Assembly (NCBI GenBank): GCA_034530875.2
Contig: JAVRCJ020000022.1
Coordinates: 67,048 to 131,047, forward strand
Direction of reading: 5' to 3'
Length of the DNA stretch: 64,000 nucleotides
Origin: Nostoc sp. DedSLP01
GTDB taxonomy: Bacteria > Cyanobacteriota > Cyanobacteriia > Cyanobacteriales > Nostocaceae
Shown here: positions 6,627 through 62,742 of the stretch, one piece after another
Layout of the letters: the number at the start of each line of letters is the position of its first letter
Numbering within the stretch: the first letter of the stretch is position 1
The notes under the pieces: model-generated
Seen by the model: only the letters and a program-made list of their open reading frames with translations
Told to the model about the DNA's origin: nothing
The model's database searches: none
Program-made: the position numbers and the translations under genes

Positions 6627-6652
6627 TACTGTAAATCGGTAGTATTTAAGTA
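6627..6652. promoter_or_regulatory. Putative sulfur-regulon operator box
   Basis: TACTGTAA-atcggtagta-TTTAAGTA; minus-strand TATACT (-10) at 6661-6666 lies just upstream. Confidence 0.7.
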
Positions 6653-7211
6653 GATTCGATAGTATAGAAGTTTTGCATAGTTCACTATAAAAGGCAAGTT
6701 TTTTTTGTGAAACAAATCAACAAATGCAATATTACTTAACTAAGTTATGAAATCTTGATATAGGGTAATTATAAGAAAATATACTCATTGACTCTGGAAA
6801 ATTAATTAACTGTTTATTAATAGATATAACTGAAAGCCTTACTGAGTAATCATTTCATTTATAATAGATGAGTTGATGAGAGTATTGCTTTTGTTAACTA
6901 TGCTCTGTGTGGGAAGATGGACAAATCGGGCACATCGTAGGGTGTAATTTGCGATCGCAACATTCAAATTAGGGCAAATGGATAATCTTCTCTCAGCAAC
7001 ACAAGAGTCTGAACCCCGAATTTATACGAATTTTAGGTACTTAGACATTTATCAAAGCATCTAAAACTAGTTGAATTTACACAATATAGATGGGTTTAGT
7101 GTGCTTAGAATTGCGAAACATTTAGCAACTATTGATTTCTCAAAAATAAAGTTTTACCTTGCTATTTAAGACAGCTAAAACATCAATTACAAAAACAGGG
7201 AAGCTATTTCT

Positions 7212-7619
7212 ATGATGATGACTGAATCTATACTCGCCGAAATCGAAGCTTGTAAAGAAATCTGCATGGAATGCCAAACCACTTGCATTGAGACTATTAA
7301 ATACTCTAAGACTCAGGGTGGTAAATACATGGATATGGGTATGATGTCCATGATGCGGGACTGTGCAGAAATGTGCATGATGTGCGTGAACATGATTAAT
7401 GACGGTTCTGAGTTTATGGGAAACACTTGCAGTCTGTGCGCTCAAATTTGCGATCGCACTGCAATGGTTTGCGAACAAATGAGCAACGATCCCACAATGA
7501 TGCACTGTGCTGCTATTTGCCGTAAGTGCGCTCAACACTGCAACACGATGGGACTCAATTCTGCTTCTTATTTCCGCAGATCGAGTTTAGTGACAGCAGA
7601 TGCACTACTTGCTAACTAA
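7212..7619 (+). CDS. Cys/Met-rich four-helix-bundle protein (Csp3/DUF326-like copper-storage fold)
   Basis: Repeated CxxxC/CxxC spacing (CAEMCMMC, CSLCAQIC, CAAICRKCAQHC); 15 Cys and 20 Met in 135 aa. Confidence 0.8.
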   Translation: MMMTESILAEIEACKEICMECQTTCIETIKYSKTQGGKYMDMGMMSMMRDCAEMCMMCVNMINDGSEFMGNTCSLCAQICDRTAMVCEQMSNDPTMMHCAAICRKCAQHCNTMGLNSASYFRRSSLVTADALLAN

Positions 7620-7704
7620 TTTACCCCCAAGATTGAGTTTCCTAACTCATCACAAACTAGTCTTTCTACTTAAAACCATATCGTGCCCGACTATTTTTAG
7701 TTGT

Positions 7705-7734
7705 TCGCCACCCAGAAAGTTTTTTGGGTGGCGA
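7705..7734. terminator. Hairpin between convergent genes, likely terminator
   Basis: TCGCCACCCAG...TTGGGTGGCGA. Confidence 0.6.
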
Positions 7735-7773
7735 TAAAATTAACAAAATTGTTTGGATTTCTGCAATGTAGTG

Positions 7774-8439
7774 CTAGGCAGCAACAGGAGTCGCAAATCT
7801 AGCATATCGTTCGATGTAGAATTCCTTGCTATTAGCGATCGCCACTACAGAATCCCTTTGTTTCAAAGCCTTTTTCCACTGACGCAGACGAGTAAATTCC
7901 TCTGGTATGCCAAAGCCTCGATATTGCTTCAGCGCAGGCCAACGTTCAAACCACGGGTAAAAGGTAAAATCAACCAAACTGATAGATTCACCAAACCAGT
8001 AAGGGCCGTCTTTTGATAACTTCGCTAAACCTTCATTTTCGATAAATTCCAAATGTTTGTACAGTTCTTGTTTAGCTGCTTCTTGTTGTTCAATTTCAGA
8101 ACTACGCAACAGAGCAGAAAAAGCTGGAACAAATCGAGTATTAGCAAAATCAATCCAGATTCGAGCCTGCGCTTTATCAATGGAATCGCTAGGCAAAAGA
8201 GGCGGATTTGGAAATACCTCATTCAGGTATTCATTAATAATTGCCGATTCCCAAACTCGCCGACCGTTATGAACGATCGCAGGTACTTTACCATAAGGGG
8301 AAATGTTCCTAAAGCCCTCCGGTGGATTTTGTAAATTAATTTCAATTAAATCAAAGTCGATACCTTTTTCTTGCAAAACCAAGCGCGAACGATGAGCATA
8401 AGGACAAACAACCGCGCTATATATTTGAATTTCAGCCAT
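7774..8439 (-). CDS. Glutathione S-transferase family protein, Cys-type (CPYA)
   Basis: [26 protein letters not shown] motifs. Confidence 0.9.
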   Translation of the reverse strand: MAEIQIYSAVVCPYAHRSRLVLQEKGIDFDLIEINLQNPPEGFRNISPYGKVPAIVHNGRRVWESAIINEYLNEVFPNPPLLPSDSIDKAQARIWIDFANTRFVPAFSALLRSSEIEQQEAAKQELYKHLEFIENEGLAKLSKDGPYWFGESISLVDFTFYPWFERWPALKQYRGFGIPEEFTRLRQWKKALKQRDSVVAIANSKEFYIERYARFATPVAA

Positions 8440-8515
8440 CTTGATGTTCCTCTATAATTTAGGATTGATTTATTAAGGAAGGCAGCAGGAAAACTGCTCT
8501 CTACCTTCTGCCTTC

Positions 8516-9640
8516 TTACAGCCAAGGCACTTCTTCAGGTGCATAACGAAACGCACGGAAGACTGAATTTTGTTCCCCACGAGCAACTGCTGATTTTTCA
8601 CCAGGAAGATTCCTGACGGCAAAGTGGGGATTAACATATTCCCAAACTATTTCTCCTGTAACTGTCACCTCAAAGATGCGACCGAAAGCACCTTCTGTAA
8701 TTAAAGTGTTGCCATTGGCTAGACGTTGTGCACCTGATATATAAGAACTGAAAAAATTGTGAGGTGGGGTGTCAGTGTATTCCCAAACTATTTGTTTAGT
8801 TTGGCGGTTGACTTCAATTACACGAGAAAAATTGAGCGCAGTGTGACGGCGATGTGCGCCATTATCAAAAATTAGGATATTGCCGTTAGCTAATTCGTTG
8901 GGAAAGTGCTGTTGTGCTAGGACGTCATCTCCAAGCGTCCAGATAATTTCTCCTGTGTGGCGATCGATAATTGCGACGGTAGAAATGTTACGAAAGCTGA
9001 CTATAATATTGCCGTCAGCGAGTTCGCCTACAGTATTACCATGAGTCCATTCGTGCCGTTGGTCTTGGGGAGTGATAGTAAAAATATCTGGATCTAAATG
9101 TTCGTGGGCGTGCCAAGTCCAAACAATTTCACCACCAGGAGTAACTTCATAAAGTACATCAGCATAGATATCGCCGTCTGCTTCGGTTCCTGGTATACCA
9201 CCTTTAATACGGGGAATCAAAGACTGGGGTATTTTTTCAATGGCTAATAAAATCGTGTTACCGTTACGTAGTCTGCGCCCATCGTGATGATGATATGGAT
9301 GTTTGTATTCCCAAATAATATTGCCTTTGGGATCTGCTTCTAAGACTACGCCCCCTTTAAAGGCAGCCCACAATGGAAAATGTGGCGGAATATTTAAGGT
9401 TTTTCCATTATAAAAAAGGTTGCCGTTGGGTAAGAGATAACCATATAAACCTGGTGGATAAGGCAAATTCCATTGATGTACCACTTCTCCTTCTAAATTG
9501 AGAAGATATACTTCTCCGTTACCTGTAAGTGGTGCAAAAAGCGTGTAACCTTTGAATACTTTGTCAGGATTATAAGCTCTTAATCCGGTACCACGGCGAC
9601 GAATGGTATTTTGATCGACTAATGCAGTTGCGATCGTCAT
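8516..9640 (-). CDS. Arylsulfotransferase (ASST)-like beta-propeller protein
   Basis: HHHD, WTHGN, QQHFP, LIFDNG, SGAQRLANGNTLITEG; start moved to ATG 9640 because the upstream extension translates a heptamer repeat. Confidence 0.8.
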   Translation of the reverse strand: MTIATALVDQNTIRRRGTGLRAYNPDKVFKGYTLFAPLTGNGEVYLLNLEGEVVHQWNLPYPPGLYGYLLPNGNLFYNGKTLNIPPHFPLWAAFKGGVVLEADPKGNIIWEYKHPYHHHDGRRLRNGNTILLAIEKIPQSLIPRIKGGIPGTEADGDIYADVLYEVTPGGEIVWTWHAHEHLDPDIFTITPQDQRHEWTHGNTVGELADGNIIVSFRNISTVAIIDRHTGEIIWTLGDDVLAQQHFPNELANGNILIFDNGAHRRHTALNFSRVIEVNRQTKQIVWEYTDTPPHNFFSSYISGAQRLANGNTLITEGAFGRIFEVTVTGEIVWEYVNPHFAVRNLPGEKSAVARGEQNSVFRAFRYAPEEVPWL

Positions 9641-9652
9641 AATTTTAATGGA

Positions 9653-9801: not shown

Positions 9802-10839
9802 TCATGGTGCTGGATTTGGATATTCAGCGTGAACAGCATCTATTTCTGCCAAGATATCTTTATCGAGAACTACATTGATACTTTCTAGATTCTCTTTAAG
9901 TTGTTCTAATGTAGTAGCGCCAATAATCGTGCTACCAACAAACCAACGACTCCGCACAAATGCTAAAGCTAATTGTGCGGGAATTAATTGATGGCGTTTG
10001 GCAATTTCTACATAAGCAGCGACTGCTTTGGTAACATTTGGTTTTAGATAGCGTTGACCAAAGTTTTCAAACAAAGCAACTCTGGTGTTTTCTGGTTTAC
10101 CGTTGAGATATTTACCAGTTAAATAGCCAAATCCTAAAGGACTATAAGCTAATAAAGGAATGTTTTCGTAATAAACTGCTTCTGCAAGAGCGCCATCAAA
10201 AACTCGATTGAGTAAATTGTAAGAATTTTGTATGGAAACAACTTTAGGCAATCCTAATTGTTTAGCTGCTTGGCTAAATTGTACAACTCCCCAAGGTGTT
10301 TCATTACTTAAGCCAATATAGCGAATTTTTCCTGCTCTAATGACATCAGCAAATACTTCGAGTTGTTCGGTAATGGGAACTGTCTCTTTTACTTGATAAG
10401 GGTCGAAAACTGTTTGCCCAAAACGAGGTACATAGCGGTCGGGCCAATGAATTTGATACAAATCAATATAGTCTGTTTGTAATCTTTTCAGACTATCATC
10501 TACTGCTTGTTTAATATTGTCTCGGTCAATTGCTTTTGCTCCATCACGCAGCCATTTAAAGCCTCTACCAGGCCCCGCAATTTTAGTGGCAATTATTAAT
10601 TTATCTCGCTGTTGGTGTTTTAACCATTCTCCAATGTAAGTTTCTGTTAAACCATAGGTTTCAGCACTGACTGGTACTGGATACATTTCAGCTGCATCTA
10701 TGAAATTAACTTCATTATTAGTTGCATAGTCTAGCTGTTGATGGGCTTCTTCGATAGTATTTTGCCGCCCATAAGTCATTGTACCCAGACAAATTTCAGA
10801 AACTTCTAGGTCACTATTCCCTAATTGATTATACCGCAT
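9802..10839 (-). CDS. NADP(H)-dependent aldo/keto reductase (Tas-like)
   Basis: ICLGTMTYG, IDAAEMYPVP, DYIDLYQIHWPDR, IGLSNETPWG; likely start MRYNQLG. Confidence 0.9.
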   Translation of the reverse strand: MRYNQLGNSDLEVSEICLGTMTYGRQNTIEEAHQQLDYATNNEVNFIDAAEMYPVPVSAETYGLTETYIGEWLKHQQRDKLIIATKIAGPGRGFKWLRDGAKAIDRDNIKQAVDDSLKRLQTDYIDLYQIHWPDRYVPRFGQTVFDPYQVKETVPITEQLEVFADVIRAGKIRYIGLSNETPWGVVQFSQAAKQLGLPKVVSIQNSYNLLNRVFDGALAEAVYYENIPLLAYSPLGFGYLTGKYLNGKPENTRVALFENFGQRYLKPNVTKAVAAYVEIAKRHQLIPAQLALAFVRSRWFVGSTIIGATTLEQLKENLESINVVLDKDILAEIDAVHAEYPNPAP

Positions 10840-10931: not shown

Positions 10932-10957
10932 TACGGTATGTCTATCAAATTAAGTGA
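10932..10957. promoter_or_regulatory. Putative sulfur-regulon operator box between divergent genes
   Basis: TACGGTAT-gtctatcaaa-TTAAGTGA. Confidence 0.6.
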
Positions 10958-14116: not shown

Positions 14117-14142
14117 TACGGTTAGTTTATCAATTAAATGTA
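14117..14142. promoter_or_regulatory. Putative sulfur-regulon operator box
   Basis: AAAC-TACGGTTA-gtttatcaat-TAAATGTA-GTTT. Confidence 0.7.
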
Positions 14143-16068: not shown

Positions 16069-16094
16069 ACCGTTAAATCGGTCAATAATTAGTA
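16069..16094. promoter_or_regulatory. Degenerate sulfur-regulon operator box
   Basis: ACCGTTAA-atcggtcaat-AATTAGTA, downstream of TTGAAT-17-AATACT. Confidence 0.5.
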
Positions 16095-17988: not shown

Positions 17989-18315
17989 TCAGAATTGATT
18001 TAGTGTTTGTTCGTACAAAGCTCCATGTGCCTCGCTGTCTACCAACACTCCATCACAGTCGAAATTTACCAGTTGTGTTTCTAGTTTACTTATTTCTTTA
18101 ACAGCTTCTTCATTAATATCATCCATTGATTCATAGGTCTCATAAGGGTGTGAGCCTTGAGCAATTACCCGATGGCTATGAATGCTGACTTGACTGGAAA
18201 AAGCAGAGTGAAAGTCAGGCTCAAATGTGGTGTTACCTGCTGGTAATAGCAAGCCCAGGCGGATATGCCTATGGGAGTCAGCTTTAGAGTACATCTGAAT
18301 CTCTGTTGTTGACAA
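17989..18315 (-). pseudogene. Chimeric remnant: maleate isomerase/Asp-Glu racemase N-terminus joined to a HAD motif I fragment
   Basis: RLGLLLPAGNTTFEPDF, then abruptly FDCDGVLVDSE and a stop. Confidence 0.6.
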
Positions 18316-18393: not shown

Positions 18394-18419
18394 TACGATA
18401 AATCGACCGATAAAGTGTA
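18394..18419. promoter_or_regulatory. Putative sulfur-regulon operator box
   Basis: AAAC-TACGATAA-atcgaccgat-AAAGTGTA, 8 nt after TATAAT (18380-18385). Confidence 0.65.
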
Positions 18420-18561: not shown

Positions 18562-19233
18562 ATGAGCAACGTACAACTTTACTTCGCCAAAGGTTCTACC
18601 TTCTCACAACGCACTCGTGTAGTCTTACTAGAAAAAGGTATTGACTTCACCCCGATAGAAATTGACTTACAGAATCTACCAGATGGGTACAGGCAGATTT
18701 CACGGTATGGAAAGGTTCCAGCTATCAAACATGGAGATGTTCAACTTTACGAATCTGCCATTATCAATGAATATCTAGATGAGGTTTTTCCAGAACCATC
18801 ATTGTTACCCCACGATCCTGCAAGCAAAGCGATCGCTCGTATCTGGATAGACTACGCCAATACTCGGTTTGTCCCGGCTTTTAACAAATTCCTCCGTGGT
18901 AAAGATAGCCAAGAACACGAACAGGGTAAAAAAGAGTTTACAGAAGCACTTTTATATCTCGAACAAGAAGGATTCGGCAAAAGTGATTACTTGTTAGGAG
19001 ATAGTTTTAGTCTAGTTGATATCAGCTTTTATCCTTGGTTTGAACGTTTACCACTATTAGAACACTTCCGTAAGTTCGCGCTACCAGCAGAAACACCTCG
19101 TTTGCAGACATGGTGGAATCTGGTGCGCGATCGCTCCTCAGTTCAACAAGTAGCAAATCCTGTGGACTTCTATTTAGAAAGATTCGCTAAAATCCTTGGC
19201 GAACCGATTGCTATTGGTGCAGGGCAAAAGTAG
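18562..19233 (+). CDS. Glutathione S-transferase family protein, Ser-type (STFS), paralog of 7774-8439
   Basis: [22 protein letters not shown](Y/F)ANTRFVPAF shared with the paralog. Confidence 0.9.
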
Positions 19234-19258
19234 GGATTGGAAAATTCATCATCTCATT

Positions 19259-19393
19259 CAATACGGTTCGGTTAACGCGTTTATTCCTCAAAGATCCCCC
19301 CAACCCCCCTTAAAAAGGGGGGCTTACAACCCTCTTTTACCCCCTTTTTAAGGGGGTCGCCGTAGGCGGGGGGATCTTAACCGAAGCGTATTG
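19259..19393. mobile_element. MITE (Nezha-like), 135 bp
   Basis: TIR CAATACGGTTCGGTTAA / TTAACCGAAGCGTATTG (1 mismatch); perfect 10-bp flanking repeat TCATCTCATT at 19249-19258 and 19394-19403. Confidence 0.9.
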
Positions 19394-19430
19394 TCATCTC
19401 ATTGACAATAATTTAGGAGAAATAAATATC

Positions 19431-20345
19431 GTGACTTCCCAATACTTTGATATCAAACCAATTGCCGGACGTATCGGTGCAAAAATCATTGGTGTTGACC
19501 TCAGCAAGAATCTTAGCGATGAAATTATCAGCGATATCCGTAAAGCTCTAGTTCAATACAAAGTTATCTTCTTCCGCGAACAGAACCTTGACGATAAAGC
19601 ACAAGTAGCCTTCGCCCGTCGCTTCGGAGAAGTCACTACAGCTCATCCTACCGTCCCTTCATTGCCAGAAAACCCAGCAGTTCTTGACCTGAATTACGGT
19701 AAAACTGTCAGTCGTGCCAATAACTGGCACACCGATGTCACATTTGTAGACCGTCCTCCTCTTGGTTCTGTTTTACGGGCGCTGGTTATCCCGCCATCAG
19801 GAGGCGATACCGTTTGGGCAAACTCGGTGACTGCATACGAAGATTTACCAACTCATCTGCGTAATCTTGCTAACGAACTTTGGGCAATACACAGCAACGC
19901 CTACGATTATGCAGCAGCAGCGGTTGATTTACCAAAACAAGTTTTAGAGTATCGAGCTGTTTTCACCTCAACTGTATACGAAACTCTGCATCCAGTTGTT
20001 CGCGTCCATCCTGAATCGGGCGAACGTGGTTTATTTATTGGTGGTTTCGTGCGTCGTTTGCGTGGTTTATCACAAAATGAATCTGATGAAATCTTGAAAT
20101 TGTTGCAAGCTTACATCACACGCCCAGAAAATACCGTCCGGTGGCGTTGGAAAGTTGGCGATGTAGCTTTCTGGGATAATCGCGCTACTCAACATTATGC
20201 GATCGCTGACTACGGCAATCAACCTCGTCACGTCCAGCGAGTCACCATTGTTGGCGACATTCCCGTTGGTATTGATGGTAAACAAAGTCAAGCCATCAAG
20301 GGAGATTCCTCTGCATATAACCGACGCGAACCCGCTTTAGTATAG
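19431..20345 (+). CDS. TauD/AtsK-family 2OG-dependent dioxygenase (sulfonate or alkyl-sulfate cleavage)
   Basis: WHTDVTF, GGDTVWA, HPVVRVHPESGE, FWDNRATQHYA. Confidence 0.92.
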   Translation: MTSQYFDIKPIAGRIGAKIIGVDLSKNLSDEIISDIRKALVQYKVIFFREQNLDDKAQVAFARRFGEVTTAHPTVPSLPENPAVLDLNYGKTVSRANNWHTDVTFVDRPPLGSVLRALVIPPSGGDTVWANSVTAYEDLPTHLRNLANELWAIHSNAYDYAAAAVDLPKQVLEYRAVFTSTVYETLHPVVRVHPESGERGLFIGGFVRRLRGLSQNESDEILKLLQAYITRPENTVRWRWKVGDVAFWDNRATQHYAIADYGNQPRHVQRVTIVGDIPVGIDGKQSQAIKGDSSAYNRREPALV

Positions 20346-22924: not shown

Positions 22925-23872
22925 ATGAGTCAAATTCGTGCTGTTGTTGTAGATCCTAATGTATCAGGACGTTTAGCATTGCATGATGTCGATGCACCTC
23001 AACCGGCTCCTAGCGAAGCTGTGATTCGGGTATCAGCAATTTCTCTGAATCGAGGAGAAGTCAGACGTTCTACCACGGCCGACGCTGGTTGGCGACCAGG
23101 TTGGGATTTAACAGGTGTTGTAGAAACTGCTGCTGCTGATGGTTCTGGCCCTGCTGTCGGTACGCAAGTCGTCGGTTTAGTTCGTTCTGGTGCGTGGGCG
23201 GAATTAGTACCAGTACCAACTCACTCACTAGCTGAATTGCCCTCGTCAGTTTCTTTTGCTCAAGCTGCTACGTTACCCGTAGCAGGTTTAACTGCCTATC
23301 ATGCCCTACTCAAAGGTGGCTCACTTTTAGGCCGTTCGATATTAATTACAGGTGCATCCGGTGGTGTGGGTCACTTCGCCATTCAATTAGCACAACTTAG
23401 TGGGGCGCAGATAACAGCCCACATTCGCCGTCCAGAAAACGAAAGTTTTGTTAAAGAAGCTGGCGCTCATTTTGTAGTCATTGGTGAGGATCTTTCGCCA
23501 GCTAAAGAATACGGCCCCTATCATTTAATTGTCGAATCAGTTGGTGGAAACACTCTTGGAACAGCCTTTAATTTGTTGGCAGAAGATGGAACTATAGTTC
23601 TGTTTGGTACTTCCAGTGGAAATGAGGTAACATTCAACGCACAGCCCTTCTACGCAGTTGGTGGTGCAAGTTTGTATGGTCTGATATTGTTCCACGAACT
23701 AAGACGAGAATCAGCAGCAGTAGGCTTAAAAAGGCTATTAAGTTTAGTAGAAGCAGGTCAATTGCGTCCTGTTATTGATATTGAAGCTGATTGGACACAA
23801 ATAGCTGATGTCGCACAGAAGTTGTTAAATAGAAGCTACCTTGGTAAAGCAGTGTTACACCTCTCCAAATAG
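22925..23872 (+). CDS. MDR-family (quinone oxidoreductase-like, Zn-free) dehydrogenase
   Basis: AATLPVAGLTA, ITGASGGVG, GKAVL. Confidence 0.85.
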   Translation: MSQIRAVVVDPNVSGRLALHDVDAPQPAPSEAVIRVSAISLNRGEVRRSTTADAGWRPGWDLTGVVETAAADGSGPAVGTQVVGLVRSGAWAELVPVPTHSLAELPSSVSFAQAATLPVAGLTAYHALLKGGSLLGRSILITGASGGVGHFAIQLAQLSGAQITAHIRRPENESFVKEAGAHFVVIGEDLSPAKEYGPYHLIVESVGGNTLGTAFNLLAEDGTIVLFGTSSGNEVTFNAQPFYAVGGASLYGLILFHELRRESAAVGLKRLLSLVEAGQLRPVIDIEADWTQIADVAQKLLNRSYLGKAVLHLSK

Positions 23873-33326: not shown

Positions 33327-33352
33327 TACGGCAATTTGAGTCATTTACCGTA
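33327..33352. promoter_or_regulatory. Near-perfect sulfur-regulon operator box in a divergent promoter
   Basis: TACGGCAA-tttgagtcat-TTACCGTA. Confidence 0.8.
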
Positions 33353-38004: not shown

Positions 38005-39090
38005 CTATTTTTGACTAATTGTTGTAGGAGTAATAGCTGCATATTGCTCGGGTGTCAGCACAGCTTCTTGAATATTTACTGGTTTGGGAATCACACCGTT
38101 TTTATAGAAATAATCGGCAACTCGTTGTTGATCTCTAATTAAGTCAGGAGAAATAGCTCTTAACCCATAGCTACGACGGCTAAGTACCAAATCCATCACT
38201 TTTGGATCTAGTTTTTGATAAGGCATAATTAATTTTGCCGTTTCTTTGGGATGAGCCTCTGCCCAGCGTTGAATTTTATCAATTTCCTCAATCACAATTC
38301 TGAGTAATTCTGGATTATCAATTGCAAATTGTTTTCTGCCAACATAGTAGCTACCTGGAGTATCAAGCCCTTGGGCTGTTTTAATAATCCGTGCTTTACC
38401 TAAAAGTTCAGCCCTTGCTAAGTGAGGATCGCCACTTACCCAAACAGGAATCTTACCTTCTAGAAATGCGCTACTAGCTTCTACATTAGGTATACTCAAA
38501 ACTTGAATATCGCTTGGTTTTAAGCCTACATTTTCTAATTCTCTGAGGATAAAATAGTGAGAAGCAGAAGCTTTTTAAAAAACTACTTTTTGTCCTTTAA
38601 TATCTTTGACGCTTTTAATTGGAGAATTTGGCGGAACTGCGATCGCACTTCCTCTACCTGTTTTGTTTGTACGTTTTGAACCCACTACATAAACAATATC
38701 GGCACCAGCTGCTTGAGCAAAAATTGGCGGAGTTTCACCAACAGAACCTAAATCTATTTTGCCCACATTCATAGCTTCCATTAGCTGCGGCCCTTGAGCA
38801 AATTGTGCCCAGTCTACTTTCACTCCCAATGGTTCTAAACGCTTTTCTAATACTTGCGTCACCCTCACAAAATCACCAGCTTGCTGATACCCCATGTGGA
38901 GTACCTTGGTTTTAATTCCAGAGGCTTTAGTATCAGATACATTGGTCGCAGAAGATTGATTTTGGACGTTTTGGTTTCCTTGCGTACAACTAACTAAAGT
39001 CAAAGAAGTTGCTAAAGTTAACAATCCTGGAACTACGAGCAATTTAAATTGATGAAAGATTGTGAAATGCCGAGTTTTGCTAGATAGCAT
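38005..39090 (-). pseudogene. SsuA-like binding lipoprotein interrupted by a single in-frame TAA
   Basis: The two track ORFs are in one frame; reading through gives KVVF*KASASHYFILR versus FQKGSASHY in paralogs (CAA>TAA at 38575-38577). Confidence 0.85.
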
Positions 39091-42122: not shown

Positions 42123-42148
42123 TACTTTTTATCTACCGAGTTAACGTA
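42123..42148. promoter_or_regulatory. Putative sulfur-regulon operator box
   Basis: TACTTTTT-atctaccgag-TTAACGTA-GATT. Confidence 0.6.
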
Positions 42149-44289: not shown

Positions 44290-45057
44290 TTAATGGCTCA
44301 TTTGCAATAATTGATTTGTATGAGTACCTTCATAGCTCATAACTTTTTCTAGTACTGCTTCTCTAATACTCACAAATACTTCACTTGCTCTGTCTCGCGG
44401 ACGAGGCAATCTTACAGGTACATCTAGCGCAACCCGTCCGCCTTCAATTACTATCACTCTATCTGCCAAAGTTACAGCTTCATCTACATCATGAGTAACT
44501 AAAAATGCTGTAAAACCTCGCTGCCGCCACAACTCTTCGATTAACTGTTGCATTTCTAGGCGAGTTAATGCATCCAACGCTCCTAAAGGCTCATCTAATA
44601 GTAATAGTTGTGGCTGGCTGACTAATGCTCTAGCCAATGCTACCCGTTGCCTTTGTCCTCCAGATAACACATAAGGCCATTCATCAGCTCTATCTTTTAA
44701 TCCAACTTGTTCTAATACCCATAAAGCTTTTGTACGCCAATTATCTTGCAAACCCAGACCCACATTATCAATCACACTTTTCCAGGGTAATAAACGAGGG
44801 TCTTGAAACATTACCCTTACAGAATGGCTTAGCTTACGCAGTGGTTCTCCATCTAATAGTATGCCGCCAGCTGTGGGTTTATCTAAGCCGGATACGAGAC
44901 GTAGTAAAGTACTTTTACCGCAACCACTACGGCCGACAATAGCGATAAATTCTCCTGCTGCTACTTCTAGATCTAAGGACTTTAAGACAGTTTGATTACC
45001 AAAAGACTTTGTTAAATCCAAAATTTGGAGTTGCGAACCTTGTACATTTTTAACCAT
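44290..45057 (-). CDS. ssuB: Sulfonate ABC transporter ATP-binding protein
   Basis: [40 protein letters not shown]. Confidence 0.93.
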
Positions 45058-45150
45058 CGTAATTCTCCTTTACTCAGCAAACTTTGTCGATGAAATTATA
45101 AATTAAAAATGTCAAAAATTAAACAGATGTTTAACTTTTGACCTGAAATT

Positions 45151-45978
45151 CTAACCGGCAGATTTGTAATTTGGATTCCATGCTAAGAATTTATTTTCTA
45201 GCCCCTTGGCGATGGAATTAGCTAGTTTACCTAGCAGCGCATAGATGACAATACTTAAAACCACAACATCTGTTTGCATAAATTCACGAGCATTCATTGC
45301 CATGTAACCAATGCCGGAATCTGCTGCAATTTGTTCGGCTACAATTAAGGATAGCCACATAATACCCAAGGAAAAACGAACACCGATTAAAATTGAAGAT
45401 AAAGCTCCTGGAAAAACTATTTGCCACAAAAGCTGCGGTGTTTTTAAGCCATAGACTCTGCCCATTTCAATTAGACCAGGATCTACGCTCCGAATTCCAT
45501 GATAGGTATTAAGGTAAATTGGGAAAAATACCCCTATGGAAACTAGAAATAATCTCGCTTGATCGCCAATTCCAAACCATAAAATTACTAGGGGAATTAA
45601 CGCTAAGTTGGGAATAGTGCGTAGCATTTGTAAGGAACTATCTAGCAGCTGTTCTCCAAGGCGAGAAAATCCAGTTATTAATCCCAAAATAAAGCCAATT
45701 CCACCACCAACAATAAAACCAGATATAGCGCGTGCGGCGCTAATTCCCATGTGCTGGAAAAGCTCTCCAGTTGAAGCTAACTTAAATGCAGTAAAAACTA
45801 CGTTACTGGGTGCTGGTAAAATTCTGCTGGAAAGTAAGCCAGTTCTAGATGAGATTTCCCACAAACACAGCACTACAAAAGGTACTACCCAAGGGATGAT
45901 TTTATCAGAGTATTTGTTGTTGAATAGTACTTCTAGCGATTTGACGCTATTTTTAGTATTTTTCAAACTAATAGTCAT
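45151..45978 (-). CDS. ssuC: Sulfonate ABC transporter permease
   Basis: ILPAPS, LALIPLVILWFGI, SGIGYMAMNAREFMQTD. Confidence 0.93.
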   Translation of the reverse strand: MTISLKNTKNSVKSLEVLFNNKYSDKIIPWVVPFVVLCLWEISSRTGLLSSRILPAPSNVVFTAFKLASTGELFQHMGISAARAISGFIVGGGIGFILGLITGFSRLGEQLLDSSLQMLRTIPNLALIPLVILWFGIGDQARLFLVSIGVFFPIYLNTYHGIRSVDPGLIEMGRVYGLKTPQLLWQIVFPGALSSILIGVRFSLGIMWLSLIVAEQIAADSGIGYMAMNAREFMQTDVVVLSIVIYALLGKLANSIAKGLENKFLAWNPNYKSAG

Positions 45979-46145
45979 AAGTGACCTGTTGATTGTTTTA
46001 CAAACTTCTTATTGACGTTGTTTATTCAATAAGGCTGAATCCGTCTTGTCTGTTAATGTTGGTTCTACCTAGATAGGTGCATAACTTAGTGGGAAATGAA
46101 CTAAAAAAAGGTTGCTTTGCCGCTTAAGTATTTATTCTTTTAAAC

Positions 46146-46171
46146 TACTAAATACCTAGCGAATTGCCGTA
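46146..46171. promoter_or_regulatory. Putative sulfur-regulon operator box upstream of ssuCB
   Basis: AAAC-TACTAAAT-acctagcgaa-TTGCCGTA-GATT; minus-strand TAGAAT (-10) about 11 nt upstream. Confidence 0.7.
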
Positions 46172-46274
46172 GATTAAGGATATTCTACACGATATTAGGT
46201 AAAAAGCAACTCCAAAAAAATACTGACTAGGAAATTTTCAGCTTTGCTTATAGATTTTTCCCATGAGTTATTAG

Positions 46275-47996
46275 CTAGAAAGTAAAGGTAGTACGGATGC
46301 TACCTACCCAAATTGCATCGTTAGCATCATTATGTTCGGGGTTGGTAATTACAAACAAACTAGGGATAATTCTGATGTTGTTATTTACCCCGTAGGAATA
46401 AAAAGTCTCTAAATGTAAAGAAGTGCCTCGGTCTTCAAAAACGGAGGCGGTGGGGGTAGGGCGATAATCATTGCTAGTTACTTTCGGTGGTACGCCGATG
46501 ATAATTCCACCTAAATTGCCTTCTTTGAATAAGTCTGGAAAGGCGAAAGTGAGGGCGCCATTGATGATAGTTGCATCGTTATCACCATTATCTAATTGAT
46601 TCGCTAAAGTGTAACCAAACCAACCGCCTAAATGAAAGCGACGACTTAGCCGCCAGTTAAATTGCAGTCCAAAGTTATCAGTAGTAGTGGCATTTTGTCC
46701 AAATGGATTTCTCGCAAAGGCGCTACCTGTTCCACCAGTAAGGTTAAAACCAGTTCCAGTACCAAAGTATTTACGGGCGTAAGTAAGACCGACATCTAGT
46801 TGAGAACTAGGTGTTATGGTTAATTGGCCTAGTACAAGATTGTTGGCGTTGAAAAATCCATTCCCTTCGCTGGGATTATTGGCTTGACCATCAGAACTTA
46901 TGAAACCTGCGTTGAATTGCAATTGCTTGTTGAATTTGTAGGCAAAAGCTACACCAGCACCATCAAAACCAGGACGGTAGATAGTAGGGTTGAATGCTGA
47001 AAAGCGTGAAGCAGCACCATTTAGTCCACCAATTGATGAGTTTATAGTTGGTGCAAATATAGCTGGTTGTAAGGCTCTAGTTCCTACCCAAACAGTCAGA
47101 TTTTTGCCTACTGGAAAACGATATGTCAATTGGCTTAAATATACTGAATCTCTACCATCGGTATCAAAGGTGAAACGGGTCATTGCAGTTCCCGTTGTAC
47201 TGGTAAAGTTAGGGATCGTGTTATATGCCAAGTTTGTTGTGAGTTGATCTCTACCAGTAAAGCTAGTTTGAAAAGAAAATCTAGTGCGGTATGCAAGAAC
47301 GGTATTAGTGTTATCTTCGGTGTCATTGGCTGGGGTATTATTGACGCGATCGCCAAATGTATCAGCTACTATAAATGTCGCATCACCAACCAATTTACTA
47401 GTTGTAGAAAACTGATTCGCTTCCACCTCAGAAACACGCGCTTCCAAGCTATCCACCCTACCCCGCAACTCTGCTAGTTCCGGTGCAAATTGTTCTTGCA
47501 GTTTTTGCAAAGTAGCTAAATCTTCTTTACGTACCAAATCTGCCGTACTAGTAGCAATCAGTTCGTTAAGTCGGTCTAAAGCAGCATTTAAGCCAGCCGC
47601 AAATTCATAACGTGTTAAAGCACGATTACCTTTAAATGTGCTATCTGGATAGCCCGCAATTACACCGTAGCGTTCAACTAAAGACTGTAAAGCTTGAAAA
47701 GCCCAATCTGTAGGCTGAACATCAGATAGCTGAGAAACAGATGTAACTTGTTTTAGAGAATCGTTTTGATTTGTTGAAGTCTGTTGAGAAATTAAACTTC
47801 CTTTTTGGTTGAGTAAAGAATCTGTCTTTTTGATGATTTCTGCATTGCCAATTTGATTAGACTCAGCTTGAGTACTTAGAGCCGAAATCGTTTGAGTTTT
47901 TGGCGTTTCAGAAGCAAATCCGGCCGAAGAGAGGAGCAAAAGTACGTTGAAAAAGGCCGGAATAACTAGCGCGTAATTCCACAAAGCGTTAAACAT
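46275..47996 (-). CDS. Cyanobacterial SLH-domain/OprB-type outer-membrane porin
   Basis: VTSVSQLSDVQPTDWAFQALQSLVERYG, TRYEFAAGL, FSTTSKL, C-terminal RTTFTF. Confidence 0.93.
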   Translation of the reverse strand: MFNALWNYALVIPAFFNVLLLLSSAGFASETPKTQTISALSTQAESNQIGNAEIIKKTDSLLNQKGSLISQQTSTNQNDSLKQVTSVSQLSDVQPTDWAFQALQSLVERYGVIAGYPDSTFKGNRALTRYEFAAGLNAALDRLNELIATSTADLVRKEDLATLQKLQEQFAPELAELRGRVDSLEARVSEVEANQFSTTSKLVGDATFIVADTFGDRVNNTPANDTEDNTNTVLAYRTRFSFQTSFTGRDQLTTNLAYNTIPNFTSTTGTAMTRFTFDTDGRDSVYLSQLTYRFPVGKNLTVWVGTRALQPAIFAPTINSSIGGLNGAASRFSAFNPTIYRPGFDGAGVAFAYKFNKQLQFNAGFISSDGQANNPSEGNGFFNANNLVLGQLTITPSSQLDVGLTYARKYFGTGTGFNLTGGTGSAFARNPFGQNATTTDNFGLQFNWRLSRRFHLGGWFGYTLANQLDNGDNDATIINGALTFAFPDLFKEGNLGGIIIGVPPKVTSNDYRPTPTASVFEDRGTSLHLETFYSYGVNNNIRIIPSLFVITNPEHNDANDAIWVGSIRTTFTF

Positions 47997-48243
47997 TAGT
48001 TGTTGGATATGCACAGAAAGTCAACAAATCTTTAATTGCTAGCACCACACAGAATTTTTCATCCAGATTACACATCCTGAATTGAGAACAAGTATTTTCT
48101 GGATAGATTGCTTTACAGAAGTCTTTTAATAAACAGCTTTTGGTAAAGACTAAATGGTATTCAAGATTACAAATGCAAGAGTGGCGAAGGTTGGGGTGCT
48201 CTCTTGAAAAGAAAGAATTTGAATTAGCCTGATTTGTGGGTGT

Positions 48244-48287
48244 TAGCAAAACTACTAAAAACTTATCGGGTTTTAGTAGTTTTGCTA
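48244..48287. promoter_or_regulatory. 17-bp perfect inverted repeat whose core fits the operator spacing, upstream of the porin
   Basis: TAGCAAAAC-TACTAAAA-acttatcggg-TTTTAGTA-GTTTTGCTA. Confidence 0.6.
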
Positions 48288-59720: not shown

Positions 59721-59752
59721 AGCTTCGCATATTTTATTTGAAAGTCAAGATT

Positions 59753-60130
59753 TCAATTTGTAACGTTACTGGATTGGGCTATCTCTATACGATTTCCAGC
59801 AGGATCGCGGATAAAAAAGCGATCGCTTTCGGGCAAGGCACGATCCTCAATAATTTCTACCCCGTGTGCTTGCAGATGTTTGCCAAATTCTTCTAAGTTG
59901 TTAACTTCAAAACATAGATGCCGTCTAGATTCTTGGTTATGAGGCTGTTTCTCTATACCGATGTGAATCTGAATATCTCCCAGTACATACCATGCGCCTC
60001 CATTTACTTGGAGAGCCTCTGGTTTAGTAATTTCAGTTAGTCCCAAAATTTTACTGTAAAAAAACAGCATAGCATTCTCTGCTTCTGGCGGTGATGTTAC
60101 CTGAATATGAGCAACTGCTGTGAGCCACAC
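59753..60130 (-). CDS. VOC/glyoxalase family protein
   Basis: HIQV, FYSKILGL, HLCFEV, RFFIRDPAGNRIE. Confidence 0.9.
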   Translation of the reverse strand: MWLTAVAHIQVTSPPEAENAMLFFYSKILGLTEITKPEALQVNGGAWYVLGDIQIHIGIEKQPHNQESRRHLCFEVNNLEEFGKHLQAHGVEIIEDRALPESDRFFIRDPAGNRIEIAQSSNVTN

Positions 60131-60181
60131 TTTGATTTTCCCCGTGTTTCTTCAGAGGTTAAGGTGAATTTTGCTTTAATC

Positions 60182-60207
60182 TACGTTAAGCTTACCAATT
60201 TAGCGTA
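60182..60207. promoter_or_regulatory. Putative sulfur-regulon operator box upstream of the VOC gene
   Basis: AATC-TACGTTAA-gcttaccaat-TTAGCGTA-TTT. Confidence 0.7.
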
Positions 60208-60224
60208 TTTATGTTACTCTCATT

Positions 60225-60410
60225 TTGCACCCAGCCGTAGCAATTAGAAATCGCGGCTATACAAACGTAGGCGAAGCCTTCCCGAAGGGTAGTCTGCCTA
60301 TCGCGCTTGCGCTGCGCTTGGCGCACCACGCGGACTCACACAACATAAAGGGTTTGAAACCCGCGTAGGCGGGTTTTGCCTGTGTAGCTTCCAGTCGCCT
60401 GGTGCAAGAT
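60225..60410. repeat. Composite repeat with nested small insertions, including the 28-nt element at 60301-60328
   Basis: TTGCACC..GGTGCAAGA ends, AAACCCGCGTAGGCGGGTTT hairpin, CCTTCCCGAAGG, 28-nt copy. Confidence 0.65.
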
Positions 60411-60564
60411 ATAGCCTATGTATATAAATTTACTTATTTTTAATCTTTTGTTAAACTAACATTAATATTGAGTAAATCTATTGTTTTTCCGTAGTTTTAG
60501 GTTTAACAATAACTCTGCCAGTAGATGCAAAATTCTGCTCCATATATAAAGAAGGAATCCGGTA

Positions 60565-61092
60565 ATGGGAGATATGCTCATTAGCGCCAACGATTGGCCG
60601 CACATAGCATTCAGACTAGCTCTAGCCCTTGTGGTTGGTTGCACGATCGGATTCAATCGTCAGCAAGGGGGTAGACCAGCAGGAATGAGAACATTTATGT
60701 TGGTGAGTATGGGAGCTGCATTATTTGTGATGATTCCTTTGCAAGCTGAGGGTGATAGTCCCTATGCAGCCACCAACGCCTTGAGTCGGACAATTCAGGG
60801 TGTAGCTACCGGAGTAGGATTTTTAGGAGCTGGATTGATTCTACAGGAATCTCCCAGAAAATCTGCAAAGCCAAAAGTGCGAGGCTTAACCACAGCCGCC
60901 TGTGTCTGGACTGCGGCCGGATTAGGAGCAGCAATAGGTTGTGGTTTGTGGCAAATGGGTTTAATAGGAGGGCTGCTGACTCTAATTATTTTGAGTGGTG
61001 TAAAACGCCTCAATCACTTATTTGAAGTTATTACGGGTCAGGGTAAACAGGGTAATTCTGAAGATTCTGCGATCGCTGATGATGATGATTGA
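60565..61092 (+). CDS. MgtC/SapB family membrane protein
   Basis: PAGMRTF, GVGFLGAGLI, GLTTAA.W..AGLG. Confidence 0.92.
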   Translation: MGDMLISANDWPHIAFRLALALVVGCTIGFNRQQGGRPAGMRTFMLVSMGAALFVMIPLQAEGDSPYAATNALSRTIQGVATGVGFLGAGLILQESPRKSAKPKVRGLTTAACVWTAAGLGAAIGCGLWQMGLIGGLLTLIILSGVKRLNHLFEVITGQGKQGNSEDSAIADDDD

Positions 61093-61324
61093 AGCTCAGA
61101 AGTTTTTCCGCTTGCTTTTCGATATATTTTTCTAATACTGTTTCTTTGTGAAGCTGCGCCAAATCGTACTTTTTTTCAACGCAAAGGTACGCGGAGGTTA
61201 GCGCAGAGGTACGCAGAGGTTTTATAAAGATAATTAGATATCTCCGAAATAATTAGATGCATTTTCATAGAGAATTGCTATAAATCGGTAGCTTTATGCT
61301 TAATTTGCTTATCAATAATTTTAG

Positions 61325-61350
61325 TACGCTAAGTTAATAGGTTTAGCATA
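61325..61350. promoter_or_regulatory. Putative sulfur-regulon operator box (distal)
   Basis: TACGCTAA-gttaataggt-TTAGCATA. Confidence 0.6.
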
Positions 61351-61427
61351 TTTTACTGAGAAATACTATCAGAATTGCCATAGTACTTGTTTTTCTCAGT
61401 CAATTGTGAAATGATGCTTTTGTTAAG

Positions 61428-61453
61428 TACGGTAATTTGATGTATTTACCGTA
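61428..61453. promoter_or_regulatory. Perfect sulfur-regulon operator box
   Basis: TACGGTAA-tttgatgtat-TTACCGTA-GTATT. Confidence 0.8.
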
Positions 61454-61511
61454 GTATTTGTATAGATATCAAGAACTCTACCCTCAACGAGATTGTAGGC
61501 TAAATCCTCAA

Positions 61512-62267
61512 ATGACAAGCACAGAAATTCGCACAAGTCAAGTTAAAGTTCCAAACGGTGATTTGCAAATTGATGCTTATCTAGCTGAACCTGCAAAAGA
61601 GGGAACTTTCCCAGCCGTAATTGTGATTCAGGAAATCTTTGGAGTCAATATTCATATTCGGGAAGTTGCCCAGAAGTTTGCTAAGGAGGGATATGTAGCG
61701 ATCGCTCCTACACTTTATCAACGAACTGCTCCCGGTTTCGAGGCTCAATATACCCCAGAAGATATCCAGCGCGGTAGAGGCTATAAAGAACAAACTACAG
61801 CAGAGGAAATATTGAGCGATATTCAAGCCGCAATCGCTTATTTGAAAACTCTACCAAACGTCCAAAAAGATGCCATTGGCTCTATTGGCTTTTGTTTTGG
61901 AGGCCATGTTGTGTATCTAGCAGCGACTCTACCAGATATCAAAGTCACAGCATCGTTCTACGGTGGTGGAATTCCCAACTCTATACCCGGTGGTGGCGAA
62001 CCCACTATCACCCGTACTTCCGAAATTAAAGGCCCCATTTACGCCTTCTTTGGTAACGAAGATAAAGGAATTCCTTTAGAACATACACAACAGATTGAAG
62101 CAGAGTTAAAAAAACATCAAATTCCTCATCAAATCTTTCGTTATGAGGGTGCAGGGCATGGCTTTTTCTGCAACCATCGCGCTAGCTACAATCCCGAAGC
62201 TGCCGCCGATGCTTGGGAAAAGGTTGTAGAACTATTCCAAAAATCCCTGCAACTGCAAACAGTGTGA
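61512..62267 (+). CDS. Dienelactone hydrolase family protein
   Basis: QEIFGVN, GFCFGG, GAGHGFF; likely start MTSTEIR. Confidence 0.92.
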   Translation: MTSTEIRTSQVKVPNGDLQIDAYLAEPAKEGTFPAVIVIQEIFGVNIHIREVAQKFAKEGYVAIAPTLYQRTAPGFEAQYTPEDIQRGRGYKEQTTAEEILSDIQAAIAYLKTLPNVQKDAIGSIGFCFGGHVVYLAATLPDIKVTASFYGGGIPNSIPGGGEPTITRTSEIKGPIYAFFGNEDKGIPLEHTQQIEAELKKHQIPHQIFRYEGAGHGFFCNHRASYNPEAAADAWEKVVELFQKSLQLQTV

Positions 62268-62716
62268 AAAAAGCAGTTGCGATCAAACGTTTCTAGCTAC
62301 AATTTTGTAGCTTTTCTTTCCGTGCCTCTGTGTCTGTGTGGATAAATGATTTTTGACCGCAAAAGCACAGAGGAACAAACTTGTGCGAGCATTTCTTACA
62401 CAACTGAACATCAAAAAATTAGAAAAATTGTATTTATGAATACAAATAAAAACTTAAGTTTTTAGTTACTAATTTCTGCAAAATTTGATGTATAGCGCAA
62501 TTTTGGAATGCAGTCTCAGCAGGAGCTAAAAATAGCCCTATATTAGTCAATTTTTCATGATTTCATGTTTTTTGTTGCCGAAGTGCGGAAATACAATTAT
62601 TGACAGGTTTGCAAGTTTTTGTTATTAGTTACAACCGTGTTTCAATAGTTTTAACTTTTATTAAGTTAGTCCTTGATTTTCTCAAAAAAGTGTGCAAAGC
62701 TTTTTTTATGTGAAAC

Positions 62717-62742
62717 TACTGTAACTTGACCAATAAACAGTA
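62717..62742. promoter_or_regulatory. Putative sulfur-regulon operator box
   Basis: AAAC-TACTGTAA-cttgaccaat-AAACAGTA. Confidence 0.7.

What the first reader, a model, noticed from the sequence alone, without database searches (positions are those of the whole stretch)
6627..62742. A ~14-copy palindromic operator marks an apparently uncharacterised sulfur regulon across the region
Seen: a 26-bp core TACGGTAA-N10-TTACCGTA, usually flanked by AAAC/AATC and GTTT/GATT and often with an aTyGayCaAt-like centre. It occurs with identical spacing at 6627, 10932, 14117, 16069, 18394, 33327, 42123, 46146, 48253, 48427, 60182, 61325, 61428 and 62717. All copies are intergenic and head transcription units; I saw none before glmS, psaC, mntH, the TA pair or the pentapeptide gene. 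At 6627, 14117, 16069, 18394 and 46146 the box lies just downstream of a -10-like hexamer, which is repressor geometry. No regulator for it is encoded here. Inference: a trans-acting sulfur-limitation repressor; a long AT-rich dyad would suit an Rrf2/CymR-like protein, with Crp-family CysR as an alternative. The box also ties genes with no sulfur annotation (methyltransferases, VOC, dienelactone hydrolase, 2-hydroxyacid dehydrogenase) to this response.
Basis: partly seen in the sequence, partly recalled or inferred. Interest (0 to 1): 0.88.

Follow-up and report, generated by a model that had tools for sequence, protein, structure and literature searches.

The report
Cyanobacterial sulfur-starvation operator box
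A long palindromic DNA signal sits at the start of sulfur-scavenging genes in many cyanobacteria and is most likely the docking site of a CymR-like repressor that reads sulfur status through cysteine synthase, a control switch not found described for this group.

Summary
The box is real but degenerate: 1 of 14 sites matches the literal core and the rest carry 1-8 mismatches. As a 34-bp matrix all 14 stand clear of background, with a weak 15th at 60468.

The genome (a Nostoc relative) has 45 strong boxes against 0-3 for permuted matrices. Boxes lie before ssuD, sbpA, tauD, cysE, cysR and an rrf2-cysK pair. They usually sit just downstream of an extended -10-like element, which is repressor geometry. 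A strict pattern hits 108 of 301 class genomes (reversed control 2).

The best candidate is a Cys-poor Rrf2 protein with a CymR-like MYYI tail. It has its own boxes in 80 of 80 Nostoc-relative loci. Boxes were found in 0 of 41 genomes lacking it and in 18 lacking CysR. One genome (G121) is a counterexample, and binding is not shown.

The box also lies in the sulfur region of S. elongatus pANL. Ten literature searches found no description. This scan noted the same box and regulator before in other genomes (e1-4240654, e1-5137714).

The parts
6627..6652 (.). Operator box heading sfnB/dszC-like monooxygenase and ssuA (minus strand); divergent from a Cys/Met-rich four-helix protein
   Evidence: 27.1 bits leave-one-out; TATACT 8 nt before, on the minus strand
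10932..10957 (.). Weaker box between aldo-keto reductase/arylsulfotransferase/GST (minus) and a 2OG dioxygenase (plus)
   Evidence: 15.5 bits leave-one-out; 17.7 with the out-of-window matrix
14117..14142 (.). Box heading methyltransferase-GST unit (minus)
   Evidence: 30.3 bits leave-one-out; the same boxed pair occurs in G105 (L129)
16069..16094 (.). Box heading FAD oxidoreductase (plus)
   Evidence: 21.2 bits; extended -10-like element 12 nt before
18394..18419 (.). Box heading GST-tauD (plus)
   Evidence: 25.5 bits; TATAAT 8 nt before
33327..33352 (.). Box between the ssuA/FAD oxidoreductase/argJ-like run (minus) and an O-methyltransferase (plus)
   Evidence: 23.1 bits; annotations
42123..42148 (.). 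Box heading amidohydrolase-ssuA-ssuA(split) (minus)
   Evidence: 27.4 bits; extended -10-like element 12 nt before
46146..46171 (.). Box heading ssuC-ssuB (minus)
   Evidence: 25.1 bits; TAGAAT 10 nt before
48253..48278 (.). Box heading SomB-type porin (minus)
   Evidence: 25.7 bits
48427..48452 (.). Box heading methyltransferase, NtaA/DmoA monooxygenase, amidohydrolase, esterase, AKR, ssuA, ABC transporter (plus)
   Evidence: 29.1 bits
60182..60207 (.). Box heading VOC protein and DrrAB-type ABC genes (minus)
   Evidence: 28.2 bits
60468..60493 (.).
   Evidence: 15.8-16.7 bits; a box precedes an MgtC/SapB gene also in G029 (L132)
61325..61350 (.). Weaker upstream box of the dienelactone hydrolase pair
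   Evidence: 15.9 bits leave-one-out
61428..61453 (.). Box with a perfect core, before dienelactone hydrolase (plus)
   Evidence: only exact match; 28.1 bits leave-one-out
62717..62742 (.). Box before 2-hydroxyacid dehydrogenase (plus)
   Evidence: 27.3 bits; extended -10-like element 15 nt before
3820..6417 (-). SfnB/DszC-like monooxygenase and SsuA-family binding protein
   Evidence: NCBIfam TIGR04022 (below cut-off) and TIGR01728; the monooxygenase has no internal Cys or Met
18562..20345 (+). GST and TauD-family dioxygenase, both without internal Cys or Met
44290..48014 (-). Porin, SsuC permease, SsuB-like ATPase
   Evidence: NF033921, NF008470, NF008420
48755..57957 (+). Methyltransferase to ABC transporter run, including NtaA/DmoA monooxygenase and SsuA-like protein

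Best explanation
The box (34-bp consensus AAAmTACgGTAAnTcgA|TcgAnTTAcCGTAkTTT) is the operator of a cyanobacterial CymR-like Rrf2 repressor that carries a C-terminal M-[YF]-Y-I tail. SHOWN: the motif, its placement at the heads of sulfur-scavenging units, its position about 9-20 nt downstream of extended -10-like elements, its presence before the rrf2-cysK, cysE and cysR genes, and its co-distribution with the tailed Rrf2. INFERRED by analogy with B. subtilis and S. aureus CymR: when cysteine is plentiful, O-acetylserine is low, the tail docks in the CysK active site, and the CysK-Rrf2 complex sits over the transcription start. In sulfur starvation O-acetylserine displaces the tail and about 45 promoters in this genome are released. 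The genome has three tailed paralogues with near-identical putative recognition helices: a widespread unboxed 'core' copy (porin-rrf2-cysK), a boxed autoregulated copy, and a third copy. The core copy alone appears sufficient, because genomes with only that copy have boxes. CysR (Crp family) is a boxed member of the regulon and probably a second-tier regulator.
For: (1) Two boxes lie directly before G000:C19:76925 rrf2, which is followed by cysK and divergent from cysE-cysR. A box lies within 300 bp of the orthologue in 80 of 80 loci, two boxes in 64 (all close Nostoc relatives). Boxed rrf2 genes also occur in G067 (L113) and on pANL. (2) Tail: M, Y and the terminal I are invariant in 21 of 21 aligned proteins. 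C-terminal Ile is the CysK anchor and CymR is a CysK partner (PMC12895370, PMC13689551, passages). (3) Distribution: pattern hits in 108 of 260 genomes with the tailed clade and 0 of 41 without; 0 of 12 after removing family f19 (kin are not independent; clade assigned by E-value). 18 box-positive genomes had no CysR-family match at 1e-40. In five rechecked genomes the best hit was 1e-18 to 6e-34. In single-contig G257 the boxes precede cysA and sbpA. (4) Geometry: TGnNAnnnT faces the box at a 9-16 nt gap 23 times versus 4.1 expected (pattern chosen after viewing). In 21 boxes of five other genomes, 17 face in and 5 face out over 8-23 nt. (5) 0 of 45 boxes contain the NtcA-type GTA-N8-TAC (motif recalled). 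Rrf2 wings read A/T-rich minor grooves (PMC9338935, passages), matching the A/T flanks. (6) Cys+Met median is 1.1% in 29 window proteins versus 2.4% genome-wide (p=8e-6; genes picked by me), and 1.9% for 25 first genes outside the window (p=0.019). (7) CysK2-Rrf2(2) prediction scored 0.60 against a best control of 0.00, graded 'weak support'. 116 of 157 solved and 2 of 215 mismatched pairs reach the mark, but only 18 of 157 solved pairs and both mismatches pass at <=0.60. Runs share >=82% of contacts and partner pLDDT is >=78. The pass may come from likeness to solved CysK-peptide structures.
Against: No binding or expression data for this strain. G121 has a 29.2-bit box before a tau operon but no tailed Rrf2 was found (280 contigs). 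152 of 260 genomes with the Rrf2 have no strict-pattern hit; the pattern finds only 19 of 45 sites in the own genome at that stringency. The core paralogue has no box of its own. 63 of 72 genomes with a strong CysR match are box-positive, so CysR also tracks the box. CysR is the published regulator of cys and srp genes in S. elongatus (PMC11420160, passages). G071, one of the CysR-less genomes, keeps a C-terminal CysR fragment. NCBIfam CymR scores (91-109 bits) are far below the cut-off of 195. A plain TATAAT-like test was only 22 versus 13 of 44. In 24 boxes of loci L085-L125, from mostly distant genomes, only 4 had the extended -10 at 9-16 nt.
Confidence: 0.74

Rival explanations
1. The box is bound by the Crp-family CysR, as an activator or dual regulator, and the Rrf2 gene is only a regulon member.
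For: CysR is the only named cyanobacterial sulfur regulator and its regulon is described as undefined (PMC11420160, passages). cysR is itself boxed. 63 of 72 strong-CysR genomes are box-positive. G121 has CysR, no tailed Rrf2 found, and one strong box. CysR also ends in an Ile tail.
Against: 18 box-positive genomes have no CysR-family match, including single-contig G257 with boxes before cysA and sbpA. G117 (2 contigs) has CysR, no tailed Rrf2 and no box >=12 bits in 11 kb around cysR-mgtC-cysK. Boxes lie downstream of -10-like elements, and only 7 of 44 fit class II activator spacing. No GTA-N8-TAC spacing is present although CysR has an NtcA-like STRVT helix (NtcA motif recalled).
Confidence: 0.1
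2. The 34-bp box is a composite site. Rrf2 and CysR both act on it or on overlapping parts, possibly bridged by a CysK dimer that can hold two Ile tails.
For: The box is longer than the 23-29 bp operator fragments of NsrR and IscR complexes (PMC9338935, passages). Both regulators have conserved Ile tails and are often neighbours. Box counts are highest where both occur.
Against: The full-length box is kept in genomes without CysR. The motif is one symmetric dyad with no second sub-motif.
Confidence: 0.1
3. Another, unidentified regulator (LysR, TetR or other) binds the box.
For: A TetR gene (G000:C19:81662) and a LysR-like gene (L113) lie divergent from single boxes. G121 has a box and no tailed Rrf2 was found.
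Against: Neither gene recurs beside boxes in the loci read. The rrf2 link recurs from Nostoc relatives to pANL.
Confidence: 0.05
4. The motif is a chance pattern in AT-rich intergenic DNA, or a repeat remnant.
For: 13 of 14 sites deviate from the literal core.
Against: 45 genome hits versus 0-3 in 20 permuted matrices; 108 versus 2 of 301 genomes against the reversed pattern; unrelated flanks; 44 of 45 boxes have a downstream gene start.
Confidence: 0.01

Closest known systems
CymR-CysK system of Bacillus subtilis and Staphylococcus aureus (Rrf2; NCBIfam NF047409; PDB 2y75, 3t8r)
   Same: Rrf2 winged-helix protein without an Fe-S Cys triad, C-terminal Ile tail, link to CysK, and a regulon of sulfonate/sulfate uptake and cysteine synthesis genes with operators at promoters (PMC2940859, PMC13689551 passages).
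   Different: Different phylum. HMM score 91-109 versus cut-off 195. The operator differs from the Bacillus CymR box as I recall it (not checked against a source). Up to three tailed paralogues per genome here, some autoregulated and some plasmid-borne. A second tailed regulator (CysR) is inside the regulon.
CysR of Synechococcus elongatus PCC 7942 (Crp family) and its 29-gene iModulon
   Same: Same kind of target set: cys transport genes, sbpA and the pANL srp region (PMC11420160 passages). Boxes lie in that pANL region.
   Different: No binding site was given in the passages read. The box persists where CysR is not found and has repressor geometry.
PDB 4cic Rrf2 protein (recalled as Thermincola potens IscR) and IscR generally
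   Same: Best solved-structure match (E 1e-20), ending in the same MYYI tail.
   Different: The Nostoc protein has a single Cys and scores 73 versus cut-off 207.55 for IscR. The boxed genes are sulfur scavenging, not isc/suf operons.
RegPrecise cyanobacterial regulogs
   Same: Comparative-genomics regulons exist for 14 cyanobacterial genomes (PMC3840689, table passage). I recall one labelled IscR.
   Different: The database could not be viewed, and the paper text and its one supplement give no cyanobacterial CymR or sulfur regulog. Overlap is not excluded.

Membership tests
CymR (Rrf2) | Rrf2 domain | tested here: met
   PF02082 over cut-off; TIGR00738 108 versus 73.3
CymR (Rrf2) | NCBIfam equivalog NF047409 cut-off (195 bits) | tested here: not met
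   90.7, 106.8 and 108.7 bits for the three tailed paralogues; so 'CymR-like', not CymR
CymR (Rrf2) | C-terminal Ile tail for CysK docking | tested here: met
   M-[YF]-Y-I in 21 of 21 aligned proteins; NF047409 aligns through its last position
CymR (Rrf2) | Physical complex with CysK, released by O-acetylserine | tested here: inconclusive
   Prediction 0.60 versus control 0.00, weak support; gene adjacency to cysK
CymR (Rrf2) | Represses cysteine and sulfur-uptake genes by binding their promoters | not testable with these tools
   Only indirect: placement, geometry and co-distribution
IscR | Three Cys ligands for a [2Fe-2S] cluster (feature recalled); TIGR02010 cut-off | tested here: not met
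   One Cys in the L004 protein; 73.2 versus 207.55 bits
Crp/NtcA-type operator (CysR) | GTA-N8-TAC-like half-site spacing (motif recalled) | tested here: not met
   0 of 45 boxes
Crp/NtcA-type operator (CysR) | Box present only where the regulator gene is | tested here: not met
   18 of 108 box-positive genomes had no CysR-family match
Sulfur-starvation regulon | Induction on sulfate removal | not testable with these tools
   No RNA data for this strain. Homologous boxed units are published as induced in S. elongatus (srpI, sbpA, cysA; PMC8049743 passages)

The most novel reading that the evidence does not exclude
In cyanobacteria the CysK active site is a single sulfur-sensing hub for at least four competing C-terminal Ile tails: the Rrf2 repressor (M[YF]YI), the Crp-family regulator CysR (W[HY]Y[EQ]I), serine acetyltransferase CysE (..GAGI/GGGI) and the sulfate-transporter ATPase CysA (..YxI). 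One metabolite, O-acetylserine, would then at once lift repression at this box, set the activity of CysR (itself boxed, giving a feed-forward loop) and tune sulfate uptake after translation.
Probability: 0.3. Interest if true: 0.87.

Novelty: new variant of a known kind. Interest (0 to 1): 0.66.

Why it matters
How cyanobacteria switch on sulfur-scavenging genes is still open. CysR has been known since the 1990s, but a 2024 paper calls its regulon undefined (PMC11420160), and no operator turned up in my ten searches. This gives a matrix that defines the regulon genome by genome (about 45 sites here). It assigns many unannotated enzymes to sulfur acquisition and names a candidate master repressor and its sensing route. 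It also places testable sites in a tractable model (S. elongatus pANL positions 9886, 10543, 17045, 8552). A sulfate-controlled repressor and operator pair would also be a useful tool for cyanobacterial expression.

Tried and rejected
The literal 16-base core as a repeat: rejected, one exact copy.
Sigma-70 consensus scan: 34 found versus 31.9 expected, uninformative.
RNA evidence: no RNA holder listed.
The idea that the box controls the sulfur-poor phycocyanin operon (cpc3 type): no box within about 1.5 kb of 6 of 6 Met-free cpcB copies (best 4.5 bits); best 10.3 bits among all 30 cpcB loci.
The fourth Rrf2 of the genome (C4:143344, no tail) as the regulator: none of the 12 genomes outside family f19 that have only an untailed Rrf2 had a pattern hit.
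A Crp-domain family search in five genomes could not tell CysR from other Crp proteins; replaced by a CysR alignment.
The pattern hit in G117 and G121 at 15.6 bits lies at a gene junction of an unrelated ABC operon and was treated as chance. The pANL hit at 23001 (11.6 bits) lies inside an ORF.
Nicholson and Laudenbach 1995 is not held, so any upstream motif noted there is unchecked. The four supplement files of PMC11420160 held as text gave no CysR gene list.
The related-loci scan returned only close Nostoc relatives, so that footprint is not phylogenetically independent.
Full report
OBSERVATION. The window is G000:C22:67048-131047 of an 8.57-Mb genome. Its closest rrf2 orthologues are in Nostoc records. 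The window is an organosulfur-scavenging island: SsuA-family binding proteins, SsuB, SsuC, TauD, SfnB/DszC-like and NtaA/DmoA monooxygenases, an arylsulfotransferase, GSTs and a porin (57 ORFs scanned). A symmetric 34-bp matrix gives leave-one-out scores of 15.5-30.3 bits; the next window hits are 60468 (15.8) and then 9.4. A matrix from 31 out-of-window sites ranks the 14 sites first, with 60468 15th and a drop to 8.6 after it (semi-independent). So the statement is wrong as a literal repeat and right as a degenerate dyad.

GENOME-WIDE. There are 45 hits at >=19 bits against 0-3 in each of 20 column-permuted matrices. 41 of 45 lie outside ORFs of >=100 aa (coding fraction 0.75). 44 of 45 have a downstream gene start, and 32 of 45 lie in divergent gaps, against 1018 of 4566 gaps overall. 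Judged from their N-terminal sequences and phmmer matches, out-of-window targets include ssuD (three boxes), further ssuA and tauD genes, an sbpA paralogue (20.6 bits), a TauE-like exporter, a NIL-domain protein, cysE, cysR and rrf2-cysK. sbpA (14.6) and cysA (10.0) have weak boxes about 50 bp upstream. Proteins of 29 window genes that I assigned to boxed units have a median Cys+Met content of 1.1% against 2.4% for 5060 genome ORFs (p=8e-6). Four have none, and the methyltransferases, esterase, dienelactone hydrolase and porin are in the low tail; MgtC and two FAD enzymes are not. The unselected out-of-window first genes give 1.9% (n=25, p=0.019).

GEOMETRY. A plain -10 test was modest (22 versus 13 of 44; 7 of 44 at class II activator spacing). 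An extended element TGnNAnnnT, noticed on reading the flanks, faces the box at a 9-16 nt gap 23 times versus 4.1 expected. It replicates in 21 boxes from five other genomes (17 in, 5 out, 8-23 nt). It replicates only weakly in 24 boxes of loci L085-L125 (7 in, 0 out). The box would then cover about +1 to +35, which is repressor geometry. No start sites were measured.

REGULATOR. G000 has four Rrf2 genes and three end in MYYI. One (C19:76925) has two boxes directly upstream, precedes cysK and is divergent from cysE-cysR, with further boxes before cysR, the NIL protein and the TauE-like gene. The box before this gene is kept in 80 of 80 orthologous loci (close kin). A second copy lies in a porin-rrf2-cysK arrangement without a box and is the widespread form. 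The tail is invariant in 21 of 21 aligned proteins. The proteins score below the NCBIfam cut-offs for CymR and IscR; the best solved relatives are 4cic and CymR 2y75. CysK binds partners through a C-terminal Ile, and CymR is such a partner (PMC12895370, passages). O-acetylserine controls the CysK-CymR complex (PMC13689551 and PMC2940859, passages). A CysK-Rrf2 prediction gave weak support only: 0.60 versus 0.00; contacts agree >=82%; partner pLDDT >=78; 116 of 157 solved and 2 of 215 mismatched pairs reach the mark, but only 18 solved pairs and both mismatches at this level.

RRF2 OR CYSR. In 301 genomes of the class, a strict pattern (<=1 mismatch) hits 108 and the reversed control hits 2. 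The tailed Rrf2 clade (best E <=1e-32 to alignment A1) is found in 260. All 108 box-positive genomes are among them and none of the 41 others is (0 of 12 without family f19). Kin are not independent, and the pattern misses more than half of true sites. The CysR family (E <=1e-40) is found in 179; 18 box-positive genomes lack it. Five were rechecked with all candidates scored and had only distant Crp proteins, except a C-terminal fragment in G071. Their boxes precede cysA, sbpA, a TauE-like gene and a GST. Conversely G117 has CysR, no tailed Rrf2 and no box around cysR-mgtC-cysK. Against the reading: G121 has a 29.2-bit box before a tau operon and no tailed Rrf2 was found (280 contigs; an orphan operator or a missing contig is possible). 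Also 63 of 72 strong-CysR genomes are box-positive, which fits cysR being a regulon member but also fits CysR binding.

MODEL STRAIN. On S. elongatus pANL, four of the five best scores lie at unit heads in the sulfur region: 9886 (21.8 bits, before an Rrf2 ending MFYI), 17045 (13.7), 10543 (13.4, before the carbonic anhydrase/catalase-like/MgtC/chromate transporter/cysK run) and 8552 (7.2, before cysK-cysE-srpI). The fourth-ranked hit (23001) is inside an ORF and the sixth scores -1.4. srpI is induced by sulfur starvation (PMC8049743, passages). That the catalase-like gene is srpA is recalled.

MECHANISM AND RIVALS. Most likely (0.74) this is a CysK-gated Rrf2 repressor bound over the transcription start and released when O-acetylserine rises. 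The sensing step is inferred from CymR. CysR as the binder (0.10), a composite site (0.10), another factor (0.05) and chance (0.01) are the alternatives. A further lead concerns tails. The sulfur-cluster CysR proteins end in W[HY]Y[EQ]I (8 of 10 aligned, plus the G000 copy). CysE ends in GAGI or GGGI. CysA ends in YxI in 8 of the 11 whole copies whose ends I read. CysK may therefore be a shared hub.

NOVELTY. Ten searches returned no paper describing this box or a cyanobacterial CymR. I read passages only, of PMC11420160, PMC3590769, PMC8049743, PMC6522883, PMC12895370, PMC2940859, PMC13689551, PMC3840689, PMC3773388, PMC2491639, PMC3323872 and PMC9338935, plus term searches in the supplements of PMC11420160 and PMC3840689. 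The plastid motif TAAWATGATT before cysA and cysT (PMC3773388) is a different, 10-bp one-box element. The library lacks most subscription papers; Nicholson and Laudenbach 1995 and the RegPrecise database were not seen and could hold a prior description. This scan noted the same box (e1-4240654) and the same tailed regulator (e1-5137714) in other genomes. I recorded my reading before seeing them and do not count them as support.

VERDICT. A real, widely conserved operator of a cyanobacterial sulfur-starvation regulon, with a well-supported but unproven CymR-like repressor. It is a new variant of a known kind of control, and it makes a long-open question directly testable.

Noticed in passing
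G000:C19:75138-75728; L088, L089, L102, L112, L115, L116, L130, L134: The Crp-family CysR-like proteins of the sulfur clusters end in W-[HY]-Y-[EQ]-I, a possible CysK-docking tail; the copies in L106 and L103 lack it.
   Followed up: partly
G000:C5:72223-73239; L102, L103, L106, L115, L116, L123, L146: The sulfate ABC ATPase CysA ends in Y-x-I in 8 of 11 copies read (not in L113, L144, L145), suggesting post-translational control by CysK.
   Followed up: partly
window 7212-7619 (+): A 135-aa four-helix protein with 15 Cys and 20 Met, divergent from the boxed sfnB unit. pANL has a 118-aa counterpart (20 Cys, 31 Met) divergent from boxed cysK-cysE-srpI. It may be a sulfur store regulated opposite to the scavenging genes.
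   Followed up: partly
G000:C4:228397-228918 (L164); L151-L155: Met-free, cpc3-type phycocyanin beta genes carry no box. In G117 and G121 the gene sits beside cysK-mgtC-cysR in genomes where no tailed Rrf2 was found, hinting that cpc3 is under CysR instead.
   Followed up: partly
window 38005-39090 (-): An SsuA-family gene is split into two ORFs of 171 and 164 aa.
   Followed up: no
window 17989-18315 (-) and 63167-63973 (+): A 108-aa ORF with no family match looks like a gene remnant. The 2-hydroxyacid dehydrogenase ORF ends early, matching the NAD-binding domain only to position 127 of 178.
   Followed up: no
G000:C19:74364-75113; L090, L092, L094: A small NIL-domain protein is one of the most constant boxed genes, also in genomes with very few boxes (domain name from my reading of the sequence).
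   Followed up: no
G000:C17:30347, C61:10242, C19:133807, C54:25786: Strong boxes near genes with no obvious sulfur role: a flavodoxin (Cys/Met-poor; possibly replacing Fe-S ferredoxin), a GNAT or phosphatase-like pair, a band-7-like protein, and a sterol-desaturase-like protein (names from N-terminal sequence only).
   Followed up: no
G000:C4:165202-167391; L133: A 729-aa FAD/NAD-binding protein with a weak box ends in DYQI; its homologue in G073 has a 29-bit box.
   Followed up: no
G121:C34 (L085:4997): A strong box before a tau operon in a genome where no tailed Rrf2 was found; possibly an orphan operator on a transferred island.
   Followed up: partly
plasmid hits H1-H4 and pANL (L105:9947-10381): Rrf2 genes of this clade occur on cyanobacterial plasmids, one next to cysE, so regulator and regulon parts appear mobile.
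   Followed up: no
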